This document shows, in pieces, positions 3,487 through 46,950 of a stretch of DNA of 64,000 nt. This DNA comes from a virus, in the IMG/VR virus record IMGVR_UViG_3300001336_000002, positions 1 to 64,000 of that record. One strand, given 5' to 3'. The notes below the pieces were generated by a model that had not been told where the DNA came from, did no database searches, and saw only the letters and a program-made list of their open reading frames with translations. How positions within the stretch are numbered: the first letter of the stretch is position 1; each line of letters begins with the position of its first letter. The translations under genes and the position numbers were made by a program.

Positions 3487-3678
3487 ATGCTTACATGTAA
3501 AAAATGTACAGGGAAGATGTTTCTTGATAGAGCATTTTCAGAAGAAAATCATTTAGAGACTTTTTGCATACGCTGCGGAACAAGAAAGTTTTACAGAAAC
3601 TTTGACAAGAAAAATGGAGAAGCGGCATGGCTGTGGCAAATGGAAAGGGCGAGAATGTCTCGCTCGATCTCCCAGTGA
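3487..3678 (+). CDS. Small zinc-ribbon protein
   Basis: CKKC...CIRCG. Confidence 0.6.
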   Translation: MLTCKKCTGKMFLDRAFSEENHLETFCIRCGTRKFYRNFDKKNGEAAWLWQMERARMSRSISQ

Positions 3679-7870: not shown

Positions 7871-10800
7871 GTGTATAACTACGCACCACTTCATCTTCAC
7901 ACACACTTTAGTCAAATGGACGGAGTGGCAACCCCAGAAGAATATGTGGATAGAGCAATAGAAAATGGCATGGGGGCTATTTCAATTACAGACCACGGCA
8001 CCTTGTCTGGGCACAGAGCCATGTATCGGGCTGCAAAGAGTCGTGGAATTAAGCCAATTCTAGGGGTAGAGGGATACATTACATCCGATAGATTTGATAA
8101 AAGAGACAAGGCTGAAAGAACAACGCCCCTTGATCTTGTGTATAACCATATTATTATTCTTGCAAAGAATGACAAAGGTCTAGAAAATCTTGGAAGGCTA
8201 AATGAAATATCTTGGACTGAAGGCTTCTATCGCAAGCCTCGCATCGACTTTGAGGTTTTGGAGAATTTCCGCGAAGGCCTTATTGTTTCATCTGCCTGCA
8301 TGTCTGGCCTTGTCAATAAGGCGATTGAGGTGGGAGACTATGCTGTGGCTAAGGCACATCTTAAGTGGTTTGGGGATCGCTTTGGCGAGGACTTCTATGT
8401 TGAGGTTATGCCCCACAATCCGCCAGAAATTAATAAGGCGCTCATTGAATTGGCAGATGCCGCTGGTCACAAGATCATCGTAACCCCTGATTGCCATCAT
8501 GCCACGGTAGATCAAAAGGTAATTCAGGAAATCATGCTTATTAACAATACTCACGCAAAGATTCAAAAGGATGTTACATACGACAAGTCTCGTAAGATTG
8601 AAGACCCAATGAGCAGGCTTGACTACCTTTATGGTCAAGATAGAATGATGAGTTTTAATAAGTTTGATATTCATCTTCTCAATGGAGAAGAGATGCATGA
8701 GGCCATGGGCGAGTTCTCCCGTCAAGATATGTTTGACAACACTCTAGAGGTTGCTGAAAAAGTTGAAGAGTATACATTTAGTCGCAACCTCAATCTTCTG
8801 CCTGTCGAACACAAAGACCCAGACAAGCAGATTAAGAAGTATGTGGATGCATGGATCAAGGAAAATGGACTAGAAGACAATGAAGAATACGTCAACAGGA
8901 TCAATGAGGAACTTAGCATTATTAAGGAAAAGGAGTTTTCCTCATACTTTCTCGTCGTTCAGAACATGCTTAATTGGGCAAAGAAGGAAGGCATTATGGT
9001 CGGTCCTGGCAGAGGTTCCTCTGCTGGTTCGCTAGTATGCTACGCACTAGGAATTACAGATATTGACCCAATCAAGCATGGTCTTCTGTTTTTCCGATTT
9101 ATTGATATTGATCGTGATGATTTTCCTGACGTTGATTCTGACATCCAGGATTCCCGTCGTGAAGAAGTAAAAGAATATCTAGAAAGACAGTACAGATATG
9201 TTGCATCAATCGCTACATTCTTGCAATTCAAGGACAAGGGAGTGGTTCGTGACGTTGCGAGATGTTTTAATGTTCCTCTGGCAGATGTTAACCGTGCGCT
9301 AAAAACAGTAGATACATGGGAAGAATTTATTTCTTCTAAGAACACGCAATGGTTTAGGGATAAGTATCCAGAAATTGAAGTTTATGCCGATCAGTTGCGA
9401 GGAAGAATTCGTGGAACAGGAGTACACGCAGCAGGAGTTGTTACATCAAAAATTCCTATTAGTAAGATTGCTCCAATGGAAACAAGAAATGTTACAGGAA
9501 GCGATACCAGGCTCCCCGTGGTTGCTGTAGACATGGAGGAAGCCGCAGATATTGGCCTCATTAAGATTGATGCCCTCGGCCTAAAAACTCTTACAGTGAT
9601 CAATGACTGTTTAAATATTATTGAAGAAAGAACTGGCAAAAAGCCAGACCTTAAAGCATTGGATATGGAAGATAGAAATATTTACCACATGCTTTCTGAG
9701 GGGCATACAAAGGGCGTATTCCAATGTGAGGCTGCACCCTATACGAACCTTCTTGTTAAGATGGGGGTAAGTAAATTTAATGAACTTGTTGCATCGAATG
9801 CGCTAGTAAGGCCAGGTGCCATGAACACTATTGGTAAAGAATATATTCTTAGAAAGCAGGGTAAGCAGGGGATTGCTTATGCATCTCCAATAATGAAAGA
9901 GTTTACTGAAGACACATACGGTACAATTCTTTATCAGGAGCAAGTCATGCTTGCTTGCGTCCACCTTGGCGGAATGACCATGGGCCAAGCCAATAAGGTG
10001 AGAAAGATTATTGGAAAGAAAAAAGATGCAAGCGAATTCGATGAATTCAAAGAGTTGTTCGTTAGGAATGCTACTGGGCCACTTGGCGGTGCTGCTGCTG
10101 AAAAGATGTGGCATGACTTCGAGGCACATGCAGGATATTCGTTTAACAAGTCTCATGCTGTGGCTTACTCAACAGTCTCGTACTGGACTGCATGGCTAAA
10201 GTATTATTACCCACTTGAATTCATGTTCGCTCTTCTTAAGAATGAGAAGGATAAAGATGCCAGAACAGAATACCTCATCGAAGCAAAGCGAATGGGAATA
10301 CCTCTCAGACTCCCACATATCAATGATTCGGGAATCGATTTTAAAATCGAAGGGAAGGGGATACGGTTCGGAATGGCGTCAATTAAGTATATTTCTGATA
10401 AGATCGCTGAAAGATATATTTCTGCACGCCCCTTCACAAGCCTTGAAGAGGTTGAGAAGTTTACCTTTACAAAGGGAAGCGGAGTAAATTCAAGGGCGCT
10501 CGCTGCAATGAATGCAGTAGGGGCCTTAACCTTCCCAGATAATCCCAGAAATGAAGAAACGGTTAGATCAAATCTTTATGAATATCTAAATCTACCTGAG
10601 TTCAATATTCAAATTCCTCAACACTATCATGTATACATTACCACTACAGACGAATTTGATGAAAAGGGTGCCTTTATTTTGATGGGGGTTGTCAAGGCAA
10701 TTAAGCGAGGTAAGGGGTGGAGTAGAGTAGAAATTCTTGATCAAACTGGATCTATTGGAATATTTGATGACGAGGAGACAACGATTGAAGCGGGTAAAAC

Positions 10801-11140
10801 TTATATTATTCTTGCTGGATCTAACAGAATTGTTGAGGCAATTCCTGTGGACGAGATACGAGAAAGCAGTTCTGCGCTTATCAAATTCCTAAACTATAAG
10901 CAACTTCCTTATGGAAATGATGAGCACTATGTGCTATCGTTTAAAACAAGAGTAACTAAAACCAATAAAAGAATGGGCACGCTAGTCCTTGCAGATAGCG
11001 GAAGAGAATTGAGAAGCCTCGTTGTATTTCCTAGTGCTTTCCCCAAGGCTTACGTTGGGCTACAGGCTGGATCAGCCTACAAAATTGACTACACGATTAA
11101 CAAGGATGATGACCTTATTTTCCAAGATGTAGTGGTATAA
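7871..11140 (+). CDS. dnaE: DNA polymerase III alpha subunit
   Basis: PHP HLHTHFS/TDHG, GPGRGSSAGSL, FPDVDSD, KIDALGL, FNKSHA; no intein. Confidence 0.96.
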   Translation: MYNYAPLHLHTHFSQMDGVATPEEYVDRAIENGMGAISITDHGTLSGHRAMYRAAKSRGIKPILGVEGYITSDRFDKRDKAERTTPLDLVYNHIIILAKNDKGLENLGRLNEISWTEGFYRKPRIDFEVLENFREGLIVSSACMSGLVNKAIEVGDYAVAKAHLKWFGDRFGEDFYVEVMPHNPPEINKALIELADAAGHKIIVTPDCHHATVDQKVIQEIMLINNTHAKIQKDVTYDKSRKIEDPMSRLDYLYGQDRMMSFNKFDIHLLNGEEMHEAMGEFSRQDMFDNTLEVAEKVEEYTFSRNLNLLPVEHKDPDKQIKKYVDAWIKENGLEDNEEYVNRINEELSIIKEKEFSSYFLVVQNMLNWAKKEGIMVGPGRGSSAGSLVCYALGITDIDPIKHGLLFFRFIDIDRDDFPDVDSDIQDSRREEVKEYLERQYRYVASIATFLQFKDKGVVRDVARCFNVPLADVNRALKTVDTWEEFISSKNTQWFRDKYPEIEVYADQLRGRIRGTGVHAAGVVTSKIPISKIAPMETRNVTGSDTRLPVVAVDMEEAADIGLIKIDALGLKTLTVINDCLNIIEERTGKKPDLKALDMEDRNIYHMLSEGHTKGVFQCEAAPYTNLLVKMGVSKFNELVASNALVRPGAMNTIGKEYILRKQGKQGIAYASPIMKEFTEDTYGTILYQEQVMLACVHLGGMTMGQANKVRKIIGKKKDASEFDEFKELFVRNATGPLGGAAAEKMWHDFEAHAGYSFNKSHAVAYSTVSYWTAWLKYYYPLEFMFALLKNEKDKDARTEYLIEAKRMGIPLRLPHINDSGIDFKIEGKGIRFGMASIKYISDKIAERYISARPFTSLEEVEKFTFTKGSGVNSRALAAMNAVGALTFPDNPRNEETVRSNLYEYLNLPEFNIQIPQHYHVYITTTDEFDEKGAFILMGVVKAIKRGKGWSRVEILDQTGSIGIFDDEETTIEAGKTYIILAGSNRIVEAIPVDEIRESSSALIKFLNYKQLPYGNDEHYVLSFKTRVTKTNKRMGTLVLADSGRELRSLVVFPSAFPKAYVGLQAGSAYKIDYTINKDDDLIFQDVVV

Positions 11141-13831: not shown

Positions 13832-14599
13832 ATGGCTAAGAATTTTTTGAAACAAGTTTTAGACAAGCAACATGAAGGCCCAATAGATACCAAGGCGCTG
13901 ATTGAAAAAATTGAATCTGGATATGTAGCAAACAGGCAGCCAGAGTTCAAGACAAAGAAAACATTTAGCCCGTCATCATTAGTGTATGGCAATGGAGCGT
14001 GCCCAAGATATTGGTTCCTTGCATTTTCAGGTGCAGAGTTTGAGGATGATGTAGATGCATATGCGGTAGCCAACATGGGAAGCGGAACACACGCCCATGA
14101 AAGAATCCAGAAAGCAATAGAAGATGCTGGAATCATGGTAGAAAAAGAAAAAAGAATTATCGCTCAAGATCCACCCATCTTTGGATTTGCAGATGCAGTA
14201 ATCCAATGGGAAGAAGATCAGCCAGTTGTTGAAATTAAAACAATGAGAGAAGAGTCTTTCGCTTATAGGCGTCATGCTAAACCACCAAACTATCACTTGA
14301 TGCAATTGCTTATCTATATGAAGGTGCTTGGGAAAAAACTAGGGATTCTTCTTTATGAATCAAAGAATTCTCACGAACTACATGCTATTCCAGTAGAAGT
14401 AAATGAGAATTACAAGGGATGGATGGACTATGCCTTTGACTGGATGAGAAAGGTTCGGGCGCAATGGGAGTCTGGAGAAATTCCACAAAAGCCATATCGA
14501 TCAAACTCTAAGGTATGCAAGGGCTGCCCTCTGGCAAAAACTTGTGCGGTAGCAGATAAGGGAAGTATTAAAATAGAGCCCCTGGAGTATCTTGAATGA
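13832..14599 (+). CDS. Cas4-like PD-(D/E)XK exonuclease
   Basis: CPRYW, GTHAHE, GFADAVI...VEIKT, QLLIY, C-x2-CP-x4-C Fe-S ligands. Confidence 0.85.
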   Translation: MAKNFLKQVLDKQHEGPIDTKALIEKIESGYVANRQPEFKTKKTFSPSSLVYGNGACPRYWFLAFSGAEFEDDVDAYAVANMGSGTHAHERIQKAIEDAGIMVEKEKRIIAQDPPIFGFADAVIQWEEDQPVVEIKTMREESFAYRRHAKPPNYHLMQLLIYMKVLGKKLGILLYESKNSHELHAIPVEVNENYKGWMDYAFDWMRKVRAQWESGEIPQKPYRSNSKVCKGCPLAKTCAVADKGSIKIEPLEYLE

Positions 14600-17588: not shown

Positions 17589-19372
17589 GTTTAGATTTCT
17601 CTGATTTTTTTTCTGCGCTAGATGACGACCCGTTTGAAGAAACCCCAGTAGACTTTGAAACATTTGTTTATGGAGAAGATTTTTTAAATCAGCCAGAATT
17701 ATCACAAATTCAAAAAGATCTTGTTGAAGCAATGAGTCAGATTTATAAAGAAGAAGACTTGATAAGAATTATGGGGGAACAAGAAGGAAGAAAACATTAT
17801 AAAAAATATACGAAATCTGAGGTAATTCTTCAGTTGGGCAAAGGAAGTGGAAAAGACCACACCTCCACTATTGGGTGTGCGTACTTGGTGTACAAACTTC
17901 TTTGCTTAAAAGATCCAGCAAAATATTTTGGCAAACCTCCAGGTGATGCTATCGACATTATCAATATTGCGCTCAATGCTGAACAAGCAAAGAATGTTTA
18001 TTACAAGGGATTTAAAAATAAAATTCAAAGATCACCCTGGTTTGCGGGTAAGTATGAAGCCAAAGTAAATGCTATCGAATTTGATAAAGCAATAACTGTA
18101 TATTCTGGACACTCAGAAAGAGAGAGCCATGAGGGACTTAACCTTATCCTCGCCATCCTTGACGAAATTTCTGGCTTTGCCCAGGAATCTAATAGTGGTA
18201 ATGAAAATGCCAAGACTGGTGATGCAATTTATAAAGCATTCCGCGCATCAGTAGATTCACGATTCCCTGACTATGGAAAGGTAATCCTTCTCTCCTTCCC
18301 TCGTTATCCAGGAGACTTTATTTCTAAGAGATATGACCATGTTGTTGCTGAAAAAGAAGTAGAGATTAAAAAGCATACATTTATTATTAATCCAGATCTT
18401 CCAGCAGACATGGCTGAAAATCAATTTGAAATTGAGTGGGAAGAAGATCATATTCTTTCTTATAAGTATCCTGGAATATATGCAATTAAAAGGCCGACAT
18501 GGGATGCAAATCCAACTAGAAATATTAATGACTTCAAGACAGCATTTCTTGACGACTTTCCTGATGCGATGCAAAGATTTGCATGTACACCGTCCTATGT
18601 ATCCGATGCATTTTTTAAGCAAGTAGACAAACTAGAAAGATCTATGAGTAAAAGAAATCCAGTAGACTCATTCAAAAGACTTGAAGCATCTTTCCAGCCA
18701 CAAGAAGACGTTAGGTATTTCCTTCATGCGGATCTTGCACAAAAACATGACAAGTGTGCTATTGCCATAGCGCATGTTGATAAATGGGTTCAGGTGAGAA
18801 CCTTTAATGACTATACCCAGATCCATCCTCTTGTCATTGTGGACGCAATTGTTTGGTGGGAGCCAAGAAAAGAAGGCCCAGTAGACTTATCAGAGGTTAA
18901 GAATTGGATAGTTAACTTTAGGAGAGATGGGTATCAAATAGGGCTTGTTACTTTTGACCGATGGCAGAGTTTTGATATTCAACAAGAATTAAAATCCGTT
19001 GGAATAAAGACAGATACTCTTTCTGTTGCTAAAAAACATTATGAGGATTTGGCAATGTTGGTTTATGAGGAAAGAGTTATTATGCCTCACATAGATATTC
19101 TTTTAGCAGAAATGAGCCAACTAAGAATTGTTTCTGACAAGAAGGTTGATCACCCTAGAAAGGGATCTAAGGACTTGTCTGACGCAGTTACGGGTGCAGT
19201 ATATAATGCAATTGCACACACGCCTAGAAACATGAATCAAGAAATTGAAATTCATGATTGGAAATCTGTATCAAGAAAAAATGAGCGGGAAATAGGAGAA
19301 AACGTTATTGCTGCTCCCCCGCCAATGACAAAAGATATAGAAGATTATTTAGATTCATTCGGAATGCTATAG
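17585..19372 (+). CDS. terL: Terminase large subunit
   Basis: GKGSGKD Walker A, AILDE Walker B, HADLA and KDLSDA nuclease residues. Confidence 0.9.
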   Translation: MSLDFSDFFSALDDDPFEETPVDFETFVYGEDFLNQPELSQIQKDLVEAMSQIYKEEDLIRIMGEQEGRKHYKKYTKSEVILQLGKGSGKDHTSTIGCAYLVYKLLCLKDPAKYFGKPPGDAIDIINIALNAEQAKNVYYKGFKNKIQRSPWFAGKYEAKVNAIEFDKAITVYSGHSERESHEGLNLILAILDEISGFAQESNSGNENAKTGDAIYKAFRASVDSRFPDYGKVILLSFPRYPGDFISKRYDHVVAEKEVEIKKHTFIINPDLPADMAENQFEIEWEEDHILSYKYPGIYAIKRPTWDANPTRNINDFKTAFLDDFPDAMQRFACTPSYVSDAFFKQVDKLERSMSKRNPVDSFKRLEASFQPQEDVRYFLHADLAQKHDKCAIAIAHVDKWVQVRTFNDYTQIHPLVIVDAIVWWEPRKEGPVDLSEVKNWIVNFRRDGYQIGLVTFDRWQSFDIQQELKSVGIKTDTLSVAKKHYEDLAMLVYEERVIMPHIDILLAEMSQLRIVSDKKVDHPRKGSKDLSDAVTGAVYNAIAHTPRNMNQEIEIHDWKSVSRKNEREIGENVIAAPPPMTKDIEDYLDSFGML

Positions 19373-19569
19373 GAGAAATTAAAATGATATTTGTAACTAT
19401 TTTCTTATTTATTACTTTGTTTTTGTTTATGTATAATGCTACATTCAGCATCGTTTCTTTGTCTAATAATCAGGGCAATGATACAAAAATTACTTCCATT
19501 GCACTAGTTTTAACCTTATTCTTGATTTCCTTGAACGTCGCCTCTATAATTATAGTATTGTAAAAATGA

Positions 19570-22785: not shown

Positions 22786-23047
22786 AGCAGATTGTTTAGA
22801 CATAGACACCAATCTATTTTTTGATAAATATGAAGATGATCAGCATCTTGCAAAGACTGTGGATGGTATTTGCCAAAGTTGCCCAGTAAATCAAAAGTGT
22901 TTCGCCTGGGGCGTATCCAACAAAGAGTGGGGCGTCTGGGGAGGAATCTATTTGAAAGATGGTAAAATTGATAAAGAGTTCAATGCACATAAGTCTAAGG
23001 AAGACTGGTTTGTTGCGTGGGAATCTTTAACAATGGAGAAAGAATGA
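22766..23047 (+). CDS. whiB: WhiB-family transcription regulator
   Basis: W..EADC, C-x2-C-x5-C, GVWGG. Confidence 0.9.
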   Translation: MHSWKDEADCLDIDTNLFFDKYEDDQHLAKTVDGICQSCPVNQKCFAWGVSNKEWGVWGGIYLKDGKIDKEFNAHKSKEDWFVAWESLTMEKE

Positions 23048-26441: not shown

Positions 26442-26945
26442 TTACCCTGCTGACTTTCTCAAATAGTAGATTGGTCTACCATTTCCAATATTTCTTGCTC
26501 TATAACTAGACGTTAAGGCATGGCAATTTGGACAAAGAACCTCAAGGTTTTCTGGGGAATGGTTTAAGCCGTCACCATCAATATGATTAATTTCTAATAT
26601 TGTCTTGCCATCATCTGGATGGTTTTTATCAAAGCCACATTTAGAGCAAGAGTAGTTAGACTGTTCTAGTAAATATTTTCTAACGATTTGAGATAGACCA
26701 GAATCTGATCCACCACGCCACTCCCCAGAAAGCCACATTGGAATTTTTATAGTATGCATAGCGTTTCTAGAATAGCATTCATCACAGTATGTTCTTGATG
26801 AACTTATTTCTGTTTTGCAATTTTTGCAAGACCCTTCAGGCTTTCTGCGATTATATATTCCAAGGGTGTTATTATAGGTGGCAGCACAAGATTTAGAACA
26901 AAATTTTGGATTTTTAGTTTCGGACTTGCAATTTAAACATATCAT
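26442..26945 (-). CDS. HNH endonuclease
   Basis: CSKCG..LEINHIDGDGLNHSPENLEVLCPNCHA. Confidence 0.88.
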   Translation of the reverse strand: MICLNCKSETKNPKFCSKSCAATYNNTLGIYNRRKPEGSCKNCKTEISSSRTYCDECYSRNAMHTIKIPMWLSGEWRGGSDSGLSQIVRKYLLEQSNYSCSKCGFDKNHPDDGKTILEINHIDGDGLNHSPENLEVLCPNCHALTSSYRARNIGNGRPIYYLRKSAG

Positions 26946-26974
26946 GCTATAATTGTATCATGTTCGAATAACAC

Positions 26975-27050
26975 CCGTGCGTATGCCCTTCGGCTTCTAA
27001 CCGATAGAAAGGCTAACGGATACATGCTGGTTCGATCCCAGTCGCACGGA
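26975..27050 (+). tRNA. Atypical tRNA-like gene, anticodon TCT (Arg), no D-arm in the canonical position
   Basis: CCGTGCG/CGCACGG acceptor; TCGG-CTTCTAA-CCGA arm only 8 nt after acceptor; 21-nt segment; GCTGG-TTCGATC-CCAGT T arm. Confidence 0.7.
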
Positions 27051-27078: not shown

Positions 27079-27149
27079 GCGGCATTAGTGAAATAGAATC
27101 ACGGCAGTCTTCCAAACTGCAAGCGACGGAGCGTAACCCTCATGCCGCT
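27079..27149 (+). tRNA. tRNA-Gly (TCC) with non-canonical T loop
   Basis: GCGGCAT/ATGCCGC acceptor; GCAGT-CTTCCAA-ACTGC; T loop AGCGTAA. Confidence 0.72.
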
Positions 27150-27187
27150 CGCTTAAAAAGTTAACATAATCTAACAAAGGAAAATAT

Positions 27188-27583
27188 ATGACAAAGATTG
27201 TTGTGGCAATTGTTTCTTTTTTTGCTCTTCTTGCAGTTTCCGCATGTTCTGGTACGACCAGTTCTGAGGCTCCAACGGTAACAGTAACGGCGCAGCCTAC
27301 ACAAGAAGCGTCACCAGAAATTATTGAGAGCCCACAAGAAAAGTTTGTTTCTTATGTTCGTCAAGTTGGAGGTCGCTATGCCTCAATTGCTGGTGATTCT
27401 CAACTGATTAACCTTGGCAACATTGTATGTGATGGATATTCAAAGGGACTTTCTCAGGATGATGTTGTTGCAGCACTTTCTTACGCACTAGTAGAAAACA
27501 ATATGAACAATGAAGATGGTGCTCTTTTTGCTGCCGCACTAATTGTCGGGGCAGAAAGATATTTGTGCTCCCAATACGTCTAA
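27188..27583 (+). CDS. DUF732-like lipoprotein
   Basis: Lipobox VSAC; LGNIVCD...AERYLC. Confidence 0.75.
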   Translation: MTKIVVAIVSFFALLAVSACSGTTSSEAPTVTVTAQPTQEASPEIIESPQEKFVSYVRQVGGRYASIAGDSQLINLGNIVCDGYSKGLSQDDVVAALSYALVENNMNNEDGALFAAALIVGAERYLCSQYV

Positions 27584-46329: not shown

Positions 46330-46950
46330 AGGTGTCCCCCAGGGGAGCGGCGGTGGGTGGGGGAGCGCTCAACCCTGAGGGACGTTTAGGGGAGCAGTTT
46401 GTCATCATGCTCAGGATGCCATATATGGTTATCAAACCTAGTGATTCAGATATTTATTCTATAGAGGGTCAGGGGCTACCTGATTTCAACTATAGACGAC
46501 TCAACCTGAATGCTATTGTTTGACAGTTTGGGAAGAATAGACGGACTCCTTTGCGGTTTACCCGCCGCTGATCAGACTTTGGGTAGCGCCCAAGGCGTGT
46601 TCTATTCTTCCTAGCCACCTTTAGGGAATCGAACCCTATATTACCCAACCAGGGAAGGCAGAGTGCATTACTTTCTAGAATGTTCATGCACCAAGTTTAG
46701 GAAGGAGCATTATCTGCATTGCTTTTGCTCCTAAATTCCCAGGCGACTCCTGATATAGTTGTATAACGTATTAGCAGACCTGGGTGGGGAAGTGAGTCGA
46801 TGTGGGGGTAGTTATCACAACTACCTGCCTCTTTCCATCTAGTCTAAAGAAGCGGATCTATTTTATGGGTGCCTGGGCTAATCCGACCCCTACATCCCTC
46901 CGCGACTAGATGAGTCCTATTCGGCCCCACGGGTCACATATCCCCAAGCC
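46330..46950 (-). ncRNA. Putative large structured ncRNA or ncRNA cluster
   Basis: No credible ORF; several 6-11 bp stems, tRNA-like module, pseudoknot copy 3 (46392-46418), GC hairpin + U-tract at 3' end. Confidence 0.6.

What the first reader, a model, noticed from the sequence alone, without database searches (positions are those of the whole stretch)
26975..27050. tRNA-Arg(UCU)-like RNA with the D-loop apparently moved 3' of the anticodon arm
Seen: 76 nt with a perfect 7-bp acceptor and canonical T arm, but only 8 nt (TATGCCCT) precede the anticodon arm and 21 nt (TAGAAAGGCTAACGGATACAT) follow it. That segment contains CTAACGGATA, resembling a tRNA-Arg D-loop (GG plus the A20 identity base). 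ATG/CAT and CCT/AGG could pair across the anticodon arm. Inference: a topologically rearranged tRNA that still forms the elbow, acting as a functional nuclease-evading tRNA or a decoy. Standard tRNA finders may miss it.
Basis: partly seen in the sequence, partly recalled or inferred. Interest (0 to 1): 0.75.

Follow-up and report, generated by a model that had tools for sequence, protein, structure and literature searches.

The report
Phage arginine tRNA with permuted core
This 76-base phage gene is very probably a working arginine tRNA (anticodon UCU) with all the standard tRNA parts joined in a different order; well over a hundred phage contigs share this layout, gene finders miss it, and I found it in no paper.

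Summary
Window 26975-27050 (+) has a perfect 7-bp acceptor stem, a standard T arm and a standard UCU anticodon hairpin, but no D-arm in the usual place. ARAGORN and Rfam's tRNA model miss it.

It is not a one-off. One degenerate pattern hit at least 119 viral contigs, and every match has the same layout. A 3-bp stem (here GCC/GGC) encloses the anticodon hairpin and covaries strongly. A D-loop-like segment (UAAYNGG...) follows that stem.

The best reading is that canonical segment 10-21 (D-stem 5' strand plus D-loop) has moved into the variable-loop position. Family anticodons are Arg, Ile and one Val only.

- The base after GG is A in 31 of 31 Arg members (the ArgRS A20 determinant) and U in 70 of 71 Ile members.
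- CCA is encoded after 23 of 103 genes.
- In this phage the gene has its own promoter and sits 28 nt upstream of tRNA-Gly.
- It is the only Arg tRNA found, and AGA makes up 54% of Arg codons.

Cultured Streptomyces, Vibrio, Microbacterium, Rhizobium and crAss-like phages carry members, either unannotated or mislabelled.

Function, fold and any nuclease evasion remain untested. This scan has reported the same family before on other DNA.

The parts
26926..26953 (+). Sigma-70-type promoter: TTGCAA, 16-nt spacer, TG-extended TATAAT. It would give a leader of roughly 15 nt.
   Evidence: 10 of 12 consensus matches plus TG. This is a consensus match only; no transcript data.
26975..27050 (+). Whole permuted-core tRNA-Arg(UCU) gene, 76 nt. 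No CCA is encoded.
26975..26981 (+). Acceptor stem 5' strand, CCGTGCG.
   Evidence: Pairs with 27043-27049. All 7 pairs covary in the family.
26982..26984 (+). UAU connector (U8 and A9, then a U opposite U at 27014).
   Evidence: T8 and A9 are invariant and T10 is present in at least 90% of 103 sequences.
26985..26987 (+). D-like stem, 5' strand GCC. Inferred to be the equivalent of canonical 23-25.
   Evidence: Pairs with 27011-27013. Paired in 99.7% of cells, with CG/AU/GC/UA types at two free columns.
26989..27005 (+). Anticodon arm: a U.U pair, 4 Watson-Crick pairs (TCGG/CCGA) and the loop CTTCTAA. The anticodon UCU lies at 26996-26998.
   Evidence: The loop has U33 and A37. The 27:43-like pair is non-Watson-Crick in 100 of 103 members.
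27006..27010 (+). A-rich linker AGAAA, in the place of variable-loop positions 44-45 plus a spacer.
   Evidence: In relatives the linker is 3-11 nt long and A-rich.
27011..27013 (+). D-like stem, 3' strand GGC. Inferred to be the equivalent of canonical 10-12.
27014..27022 (+). D-loop-like segment TAACGGATA. A14 and A15 lie at 27015-27016, G18 and G19 at 27018-27019, and the A20-like base at 27020.
   Evidence: The base after GG is A in 31 of 31 Arg members and U in 70 of 71 Ile members.
27023..27025 (+). CAU connector to the T arm (46-48-like). The final U could form a Levitt-type pair with A15.
   Evidence: Conserved in all members, including those not selected by the pattern. The pairing is inferred.
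27026..27042 (+). T arm: GCTGG, TTCGATC, CCAGT.
27043..27050 (+). Acceptor stem 3' strand CGCACGG plus discriminator A.
   Evidence: The discriminator is A or G in 29 of 31 Arg members.
27079..27150 (+). Canonical tRNA-Gly(UCC), 28 nt downstream. It is probably in the same transcript.
   Evidence: 44.7 bits. No terminator-like site lies between the two genes.
26442..26945 (-). Divergent HNH endonuclease gene (167 aa), a neighbour and not a part of the RNA.
   Evidence: (phrog_1271, E 2e-19).

Best explanation
The element is a functional elongator tRNA-Arg(UCU). It belongs to a large, phage-borne class of tRNAs whose core is wired in a different order from the cloverleaf.

A canonical tRNA runs acceptor, 8-9, D-stem 5' strand plus D-loop (10-21), D-stem 3' strand (22-25), anticodon arm, variable loop, T arm. 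This RNA runs acceptor, U8-A9, the 22-25-like strand, the anticodon arm, an A-rich linker, the 10-13-like strand plus D-loop, a CAU connector, and the T arm. The D-stem therefore encloses the anticodon hairpin, and the D-loop becomes a single-stranded segment next to the T arm.

Inferred: each of the three new joints (9 to 22, 45 to 10, 21 to 46) links nucleotides that are neighbours in the canonical L-shaped fold. The RNA can then still stack the D-stem on the anticodon stem and dock G18-G19 on the T-loop.

Inferred life cycle:
- It is transcribed from its own promoter together with tRNA-Gly.
- Host RNase P and 3' nucleases trim it, and the host enzyme adds CCA.
- Host ArgRS charges it through A20, C35 and U36.
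- It reads AGA, the phage's commonest Arg codon.

Shown here: the layout, its covariation, isotype-specific identity bases and genomic context. Not shown: the transcript, the fold, charging and decoding.
For: 1. Family size. The pattern scan gave at least 119 viral stretches, and all 127 matches have the full layout with a 7-bp acceptor at a fixed distance. A looser descriptor found 137 unique members.
2. Structure. RNAalifold predicts the four helices unaided. The D-like stem is paired in 99.7% of cells, with compensatory changes at both free columns. The covariation score is 0.831, against 0.21 for shuffles and at most 0.14 when the partners are slid.
3. Identity elements.
   - The A20-like base is A in 31 of 31 Arg members and U in 70 of 71 Ile members.
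   - The discriminator is A in 71 of 71 Ile members and A or G in 29 of 31 Arg members.
   - This matches the published Arg and Ile/Val identity rules (PMC9976931).
4. Body sequences. With the anticodon and A20 columns removed, the sequences still sort by isotype: 4 changes on the tree against 27 in shuffles.
5. CCA is encoded directly after 23 of 103 genes, where about 1.6 would be expected by chance.
6. Context across the family.
   - 83 of 119 genes lie within 300 nt of a canonical tRNA gene.
   - Only 4 of 119 loci also hold a canonical tRNA with the same anticodon.
   - In Streptomyces phage Mildred21, three permuted Arg tRNAs (UCU, UCG, ACG) plus one canonical (CCU) make up a full Arg set.
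7. This genome.
   - There is one copy and no canonical tRNA-Arg.
   - AGA accounts for 593 of 1090 Arg codons.
   - A near-consensus promoter lies upstream and tRNA-Gly lies 28 nt downstream.
Against:
- For this sequence alone, the family structure (-22.3 kcal/mol) is 2.6 kcal/mol above the nearest-neighbour MFE (-24.9). The energy z-score is only -1.9.
- The 27:43-like pair is U.U, so the anticodon stem has only four Watson-Crick pairs.
- The three-dimensional argument rests on recalled tRNA crystal-structure contacts, not on a model.
- Many conserved columns were fixed by the search pattern, so their conservation is partly by construction.
- A few genomes carry both a permuted and a canonical tRNA with the same anticodon, for example Ile-GAU in Mildred21. 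This leaves room for a second role.
Confidence: 0.8

Rival explanations
1. It is a tRNA look-alike that is not used in translation. It would act as a decoy or sponge, soaking up a host tRNA-directed nuclease or another tRNA-binding factor, or as a regulator.
For: - The unusual core must have some reason to persist next to ordinary phage tRNAs.
- Some genomes hold both a canonical and a permuted tRNA with the same anticodon.
- Phage tRNAs are known to counter tRNA-cleaving defences (PMC10264068 and PMC11464382).
Against: - A decoy would not need isotype-specific synthetase determinants (A20 in all Arg members, A73 in all Ile members), an encoded CCA, or anticodons that fill gaps in the phage's tRNA set.
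- In this genome it is the only Arg tRNA, and AGA is the main Arg codon.
Confidence: 0.12
2. Only the gene is permuted. RNA processing (cutting and rejoining) restores a canonical cloverleaf tRNA, as happens with the circularly permuted tRNA genes of red algae.
For: Permuted tRNA genes repaired at the RNA level do exist (PMC3978253).
Against: - The 5' and 3' ends here are already the normal acceptor ends.
- Restoring the canonical order would mean excising an internal segment and re-inserting it elsewhere. No known pathway does this.
- There is no bulge-helix-bulge motif.
- The permuted arrangement itself forms a covarying stem, which shows selection on the RNA as encoded.
Confidence: 0.03
3. 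It is a decayed tRNA pseudogene or a chance resemblance.
For: - tRNA finders and Rfam do not call it.
- The folding z-score is modest.
Against: More than 130 distinct homologs, from very different phages, show compensatory changes in all four helices. The gene also has a near-consensus promoter.
Confidence: 0.01

Closest known systems
Canonical bacterial and phage tRNA-Arg(UCU), such as E. coli argU (Rfam RF00005)
   Same: - 7-bp acceptor stem and discriminator A/G73.
- T arm with a GTTCRANYC loop.
- Anticodon loop CUUCUAA.
- D-loop bases A14, R15, G18, G19, A20 and A21.
- About the same length, and located in tRNA gene clusters.
   Different: - The order of the segments differs: the D-stem encloses the anticodon arm, and the D-loop lies between that stem and the T arm.
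- An A-rich linker replaces the ordinary variable loop.
- It scores below the RF00005 cut-off.
D-arm-lacking mitochondrial tRNAs, such as mt tRNA-Ser(AGY/UCU) (review PMC7609411), and the engineered mini HisT (PMC11551756)
   Same: Both depart from the cloverleaf between the acceptor and anticodon arms. In both, a short connector leads from the acceptor stem straight to a helix that carries the anticodon.
   Different: Those RNAs have lost the D-stem and D-loop and fold into a relaxed shape without the D/T elbow. Here every D-arm element is kept, including GG and A20, and has been relocated. These are also phage RNAs that use bacterial cytosolic translation.
Circularly permuted and split tRNA genes of Cyanidioschyzon merolae and archaea (PMC3978253, PMC3218864)
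   Same: The tRNA segments appear in a non-standard order in the gene.
   Different: In those genes the 3' half precedes the 5' half, and processing through a circular intermediate yields a normal cloverleaf. Here the acceptor ends are in the normal place, and the permutation is internal and apparently permanent.
Phage tRNAs that escape tRNA-cleaving defences: mycobacteriophage anticodon-loop variants (PMC10264068) and the T5 tRNA that neutralises PARIS (PMC11464382)
   Same: They are phage-encoded tRNAs that differ from the host's in ways that may protect them.
   Different: Those are normal cloverleaf tRNAs with base changes in the anticodon loop or stem. Here the backbone topology of the core is changed, and no link to any defence system was tested.
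YrlA-type Y RNAs, which are tRNA mimics bound by Ro60 (PMC4201824)
   Same: They are tRNA-shaped modules with non-standard connectivity, and some are found in phages.
   Different: - YrlA has no anticodon loop and no free acceptor end, and it works with Ro60.
- This RNA has both an anticodon loop and free acceptor ends.
- This genome has no TROVE/Ro60 gene.

Membership tests
Canonical tRNA (Rfam RF00005 cloverleaf) | 7-bp acceptor stem plus discriminator, and a 5-bp T stem with a 7-nt T-loop | tested here: met
   Acceptor pairs are paired in 97.4% of cells and T-stem pairs in 98.3% across 103 homologs.
Canonical tRNA (Rfam RF00005 cloverleaf) | 7-nt anticodon loop with U33 and a purine at 37 | tested here: met
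   The loop is CTTCTAA. Family loops match the canonical Arg and Ile loops.
Canonical tRNA (Rfam RF00005 cloverleaf) | [quoted passage not shown] | tested here: not met
   Only 8 nt precede the anticodon hairpin. The covarying stem encloses the anticodon hairpin instead.
Canonical tRNA (Rfam RF00005 cloverleaf) | A score at or above the Rfam gathering cut-off (29 bits), or a call by a tRNA finder | tested here: not met
   No RF00005 hit. The best match in the clan is tRNA-Sec at 20.8 bits, E 0.26. ARAGORN finds nothing.
   GCC/GGC, then TAACGGATACAT. R1 scores it at 84.2 bits, against at most about 34 for ordinary tRNAs. The window sequence is one of the 103 training rows.
Phage permuted-core tRNA class, Arg subgroup | A at the A20-like position, C35, and discriminator A or G | tested here: met
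   A at 27020, anticodon UCU, discriminator A. A20 is present in 31 of 31 Arg members.
Functional aminoacylated tRNA | A stable processed transcript with CCA, charged with Arg and used on ribosomes | not testable with these tools
No biochemical data are available.
D-arm-lacking mitochondrial-type tRNA | The D-stem and the D-loop GG/elbow contacts are absent | tested here: not met
   The D-like stem and the GG-containing loop are conserved.
Circularly permuted tRNA gene (algal or archaeal type) | The 3' half lies upstream of the 5' half, with a bulge-helix-bulge processing motif | tested here: not met
   The acceptor 5' and 3' strands lie at the two ends of the gene in normal order.
tRNA-Sec (RF01852) | An extended acceptor/T helix, a 6-bp D-stem, a long variable arm and a UCA anticodon | tested here: not met
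   20.8 bits against a cut-off of 47. The anticodon is UCU and the acceptor stem has 7 bp.
YrlA/Y RNA tRNA mimic | A Ro60 (TROVE) partner, and a tRNA-like module without an anticodon loop | tested here: not met
   No TROVE match in the 101.7-kb genome. An intact anticodon loop is present.

The most novel reading that the evidence does not exclude
The re-threaded core is an adaptation, not a tolerated accident. It keeps every surface that the synthetase, EF-Tu and the ribosome read, but it changes the backbone path through the D-arm/variable-loop region. The phage's Arg, Ile and Val tRNAs would then escape a host tRNA-directed defence nuclease or modification enzyme, or the phage's own weapon against host tRNAs. 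That would make it a structural route of immune evasion, distinct from the known anticodon-loop point changes. Its limitation to subclass Ia synthetase clients would follow because these enzymes leave the variable-loop face unread.
Probability: 0.3. Interest if true: 0.95.

Novelty: new variant of a known kind. Interest (0 to 1): 0.85.

Why it matters
Reviews and recent papers state that cytosolic and bacterial tRNAs all share the cloverleaf, and that arm size is the full extent of their diversity (PMC11551756 and PMC7609411). A widespread natural class that builds a tRNA from the same parts in a different strand order would contradict that.

It would matter in several ways:
- It shows that the L-shape can be reached by more than one topology.
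- It offers a natural test of which contacts synthetases, RNase P, EF-Tu and the ribosome really need.
- It exposes a systematic gap in phage annotation. Arg and Ile tRNAs are missing or mislabelled in GenBank records, which distorts studies of codon usage against tRNA content.
- It could provide scaffolds for orthogonal tRNAs.

Because cultured Streptomyces, Vibrio, Microbacterium, Rhizobium and Bacteroides phages carry members, the question can be tested directly.

Tried and rejected
No covariation was found, so they were rejected in favour of GCC/GGC.
- **A special link between the HNH neighbour and this RNA.**
  - Close homologs of the window's HNH sit beside permuted tRNAs in eight other contigs.
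  - Only 4 of 119 pattern-derived loci have such a neighbour.
  - The HNH gene beside a permuted tRNA in Mildred21 is unrelated.
  - I read this as ordinary homing-endonuclease traffic in tRNA clusters.
- **The anticodon readings GAA and UAA used in two GenBank records.** These triplets lie in the invariant linker and D-loop and do not track isotype, so they were rejected.
- **A second Arg tRNA with an intron at 46614-46854, and other relaxed-mode ARAGORN calls.** Rfam gives them no support.
- **Cellular origin.**
  - In 596 Gb of species genomes, the pattern found 24 true members, all on metagenome-assembled contigs.
  - All hits in isolate genomes fail the layout.
  - There was no match in 5,426 E. 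coli genomes.
- **Near-identical relatives in GenBank phages.** None were found.
- **Literature.** Eight searches and two targeted readings found no description of this layout.

Full report
**1. The observation**

- The acceptor stem is a perfect 7 bp (CCGTGCG/CGCACGG), followed by discriminator A.
- The T arm is GCTGG-TTCGATC-CCAGT.
- The anticodon hairpin is TCGG-CTTCTAA-CCGA, and its loop has U33, UCU and A37.
- Only 8 nt precede the hairpin and 21 nt follow it.

ARAGORN finds four ordinary tRNAs in the window (Ile-UAU, Gly-UCC, Asn-GUU, Asp-GUC) but not this one. Rfam gives no RF00005 match. The best hit in the clan is tRNA-Sec at 20.8 bits against a cut-off of 47.

The window is the first 64 kb of a complete 101,743-bp IMG/VR phage genome with direct terminal repeats. 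That genome holds one copy of the element.

**2. It is a family, not a one-off**

- **First homologs.** nhmmer with this sequence alone found same-layout genes in contigs fetched through the neighbouring HNH gene. ARAGORN missed all of them.
- **Pattern scan of IMG/VR.** I used a degenerate pattern taken from the odd segment (GAAAG NN TAAY N0-1 GG NNNN ATG NNN GTTC).
The gene's 5' end lies exactly 32 nt upstream, and 107 have 7 of 7 acceptor pairs.
  - There are 103 distinct sequences. Their anticodons are UAU 56, ACG 16, GAU 15, UCU 13, CCU 2 and CAU 1.
- **Scans that do not fix the linker.** A second pattern and a structural descriptor raised the count to 137 distinct members.
  - They added the anticodons UCG, GCG and a single UAC (Val).
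  - They added linkers such as AGUA and UUUA, and longer A-rich ones.
  - They showed twelve fully Watson-Crick sequence versions of the D-like stem.

**3. Structure**

RNAalifold, given no constraint, predicts four helices: acceptor, a 3-bp stem at columns 11-13/37-39 that encloses the anticodon hairpin, a 4-bp anticodon stem, and the T stem.

| Measure | Value |
|---|---|
| D-like stem, cells paired | 99.7% |
| Pair types at column pair 11:39 | CG 70, AU 27, GC 4, UA 2 |
| Pair types at column pair 12:38 | CG 64, UA 33, AU 2, GC 2, UG 2 |
| Covariation score, whole structure | 0.831 |
| Same score, shuffled partners | 0.21 |
| Same score, partners slid by 1-3 columns | at most 0.14 |

In the window the D-like stem is GCC (26985-26987) with GGC (27011-27013).

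For the window sequence alone, the family structure costs -22.3 kcal/mol against an MFE of -24.9. Nearest-neighbour energies ignore tertiary contacts, so comparative evidence carries the case, not thermodynamics.

**4. Mapping onto the canonical tRNA (inference)**

After the 3' strand of the D-like stem comes U-A-A-Y-(N)-G-G-N-N-A. This is the D-loop consensus A14, R15, Y16, (Y17), G18, G19, N20, (20a), A21.
- The strand before this segment therefore corresponds to canonical 10-13.
- The strand just after U8-A9 corresponds to 22-25.
- The CAU before the T stem corresponds to 46-48, and its U could form a Levitt-type pair with A15.

In effect, block 10-21 has been moved from between 9 and 22 to between about 45 and 46, with an A-rich spacer.

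From my knowledge of the yeast tRNA-Phe structure:
- A9 contacts the 12-23 pair.
- Position 45 contacts the 10-25 pair.
- A21 lies in the layer next to position 46.

If so, all three new joints connect nucleotides that are spatial neighbours. I could not model this.

**5. Evidence that these are working tRNAs**

- **Synthetase determinants.**
  - The base after GG was unconstrained in the search. It is A in 31 of 31 Arg members and U in 70 of 71 Ile members.
  - The discriminator is A in 71 of 71 Ile members and A or G in 29 of 31 Arg members.
  - These are the published determinants: A20, C35 and A/G73 for Arg, and A73 for Ile and Val (PMC9976931).
- **Isotype-specific bodies.** With the anticodon and A20 columns removed, the sequences still sort by isotype: 4 changes on the tree against 27 in shuffles.
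- **Encoded CCA.** CCA follows the discriminator in 23 of 103 genes (15 of 31 Arg), where about 1.6 would be expected by chance.
- **Location.**
  - 83 of 119 genes lie within 300 nt of a canonical tRNA gene.
  - ARAGORN overlaps only 2 of the 119.
  - Only 4 loci also hold a canonical tRNA with the same anticodon.
- **Complementary sets.** Streptomyces phage Mildred21 has four members (Ile-GAU, Arg-UCU, Arg-UCG, Arg-ACG). Its only canonical Arg tRNA is CCU, so the permuted genes complete the Arg set.

**6. This genome**

- A near-consensus promoter (TTGCAA, 16 nt, TG-n-TATAAT) ends 21 nt before the gene.
- No terminator-like site separates the gene from tRNA-Gly, which begins 28 nt after it.
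- No canonical tRNA-Arg exists. The relaxed-mode ARAGORN calls have no Rfam support.
- AGA is the main Arg codon (593 of 1090). AUA and GGA, served by the phage's canonical tRNAs, are also common.
- No CCA-adding enzyme gene (PF01743) was found, so the host enzyme would add CCA.
- The DnaE-type polymerase is 53% identical to those of Streptomyces phages whose closest listed matches are BillNye, Wakanda and relatives. The related BE-cluster phages carry permuted tRNAs.

**7. Distribution**

- **Cultured phages with members.**
  - Hosts include Streptomyces (dozens of GenBank phage records), Vibrio crassostreae, Microbacterium foliorum, Rhizobium and Mesorhizobium.
  - The crAss-like Kehishuvirus 'tikkala' of Bacteroides cellulosilyticus also carries one.
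- **Annotation.**
  - Almost all of these members are unannotated.
  - The exceptions are mislabelled: tRNA-Leu(UUA) in EGole, and tRNA-Phe(gaa) and tRNA-OTHER in Mildred21.
  - The mistaken anticodons were read from the invariant D-loop or linker.
- **Cellular genomes.**
  - In 185,579 species genomes the pattern found 24 true members, all on metagenome-assembled contigs.
  - About 35 further hits were chance matches, and these include every hit in an isolate genome.
  - No match was found in 5,426 complete E. coli genomes.

**8. What is known**

Eight literature searches found no description of this layout.
- The 2020 review of non-canonical tRNAs mentions neither phages nor permuted cores.

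Earlier notes of this scan report the same family on other genomes and likewise found no paper. I re-derived the family independently here. Those notes are not independent evidence.

**9. Why the layout exists**

This is open.
- All isotypes found (Arg, Ile and one Val) are clients of subclass Ia synthetases.
- From general knowledge, class I enzymes approach the tRNA with the variable-loop face turned to solvent. That is where this layout differs most from the cloverleaf. This fits tolerance by those enzymes but does not explain any advantage.
- Escape from a factor that reads the D-arm/variable-loop backbone is attractive but untested. A decoy role is less likely, given the identity elements and the complementary sets.

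**10. Verdict**

This is a real gene and very probably a functional tRNA-Arg(UCU). It has a permuted, non-cloverleaf core and belongs to a large class confined to phages, as far as sampled. I could not find that class described. No RNA-level, structural or charging data were available.

Noticed in passing
window 26442-26945 (-); L002, L003, L006, L007, L016, L039, L066, L077: An HNH endonuclease gene starts 30 nt from the 5' end of the permuted tRNA, on the other strand. Its closest homologs (about 43-72% identity) also lie within about 120 nt of a permuted tRNA in eight other contigs, and the orientation varies. Across the family this is rare (4 of 119 loci), and the HNH next to a permuted tRNA in Mildred21 is unrelated. 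It is probably ordinary homing-endonuclease traffic in tRNA clusters.
   Followed up: partly
L340 (Streptomyces phage Mildred21, MF155946.1): 1704-1780, 14380-14454, 19368-19443, 22858-22934: This cultured phage has four permuted tRNAs: Ile-GAU, Arg-UCU, Arg-UCG and Arg-ACG. GenBank labels two of them tRNA-OTHER and tRNA-Phe(gaa) and leaves two unannotated. In the sister phage EGole (L203:2969-3045), the Ile-GAU copy is labelled tRNA-Leu (UUA).
   Followed up: yes
L340:1168-1689 and L203:2434-2955: In Mildred21 and EGole, a phage-encoded tRNA nucleotidyltransferase (CCA-adding type, as annotated in the records) ends 13-15 nt before the permuted Ile-GAU gene. Mildred21 also encodes a Ro-like RNA-binding protein and a tmRNA. 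The window's genome has neither PF01743 nor TROVE.
   Followed up: partly
L007:3553-3629: This is the only member with a non-Arg, non-Ile anticodon: loop TTTACAT, which reads as UAC (Val). It has an Ile-like D-loop and discriminator A.
   Followed up: no
L201:2996-3073 (Rhizobium phage RHph_I1_18, MN988519.1): A divergent permuted Arg-ACG gene (49 bits) lies unannotated between tRNA-Ile and tRNA-Phe. The record's locus tags skip number 035 exactly there, as if a call had been removed.
   Followed up: no
alignment A2, columns 15 and 31 (window 26989 and 27005): The top pair of the anticodon stem (27:43-like) is non-Watson-Crick in 100 of 103 members, mostly U.U. The anticodon stem therefore has four standard pairs. 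Subgroups with a Watson-Crick pair there have G or A, not C, at the preceding 26-like position.
   Followed up: partly
window 7871-11140 (+) and the whole genome: The phage has a DnaE-type polymerase 53% identical to those of Streptomyces phages of about 121-131 kb. Its own genome is only 101.7 kb at about 40% GC, so its host is probably not Streptomyces. The host was not identified.
   Followed up: partly
window 27188-27583 (+): The ORF just downstream of tRNA-Gly begins with a lipoprotein-like signal (hydrophobic stretch, then Cys). It matches only a PHROG of unknown function (phrog_542).
   Followed up: no
L235:2617-2693 and 3550-3626; L246; L250; L225: Members also occur on very long contigs (200-400 kb) binned as bacterial MAGs (Erysipelotrichaceae, Paceibacterota, Firmicutes, Saprospiraceae). 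I did not check whether these are mis-binned huge phages, prophages or true cellular copies.
   Followed up: no
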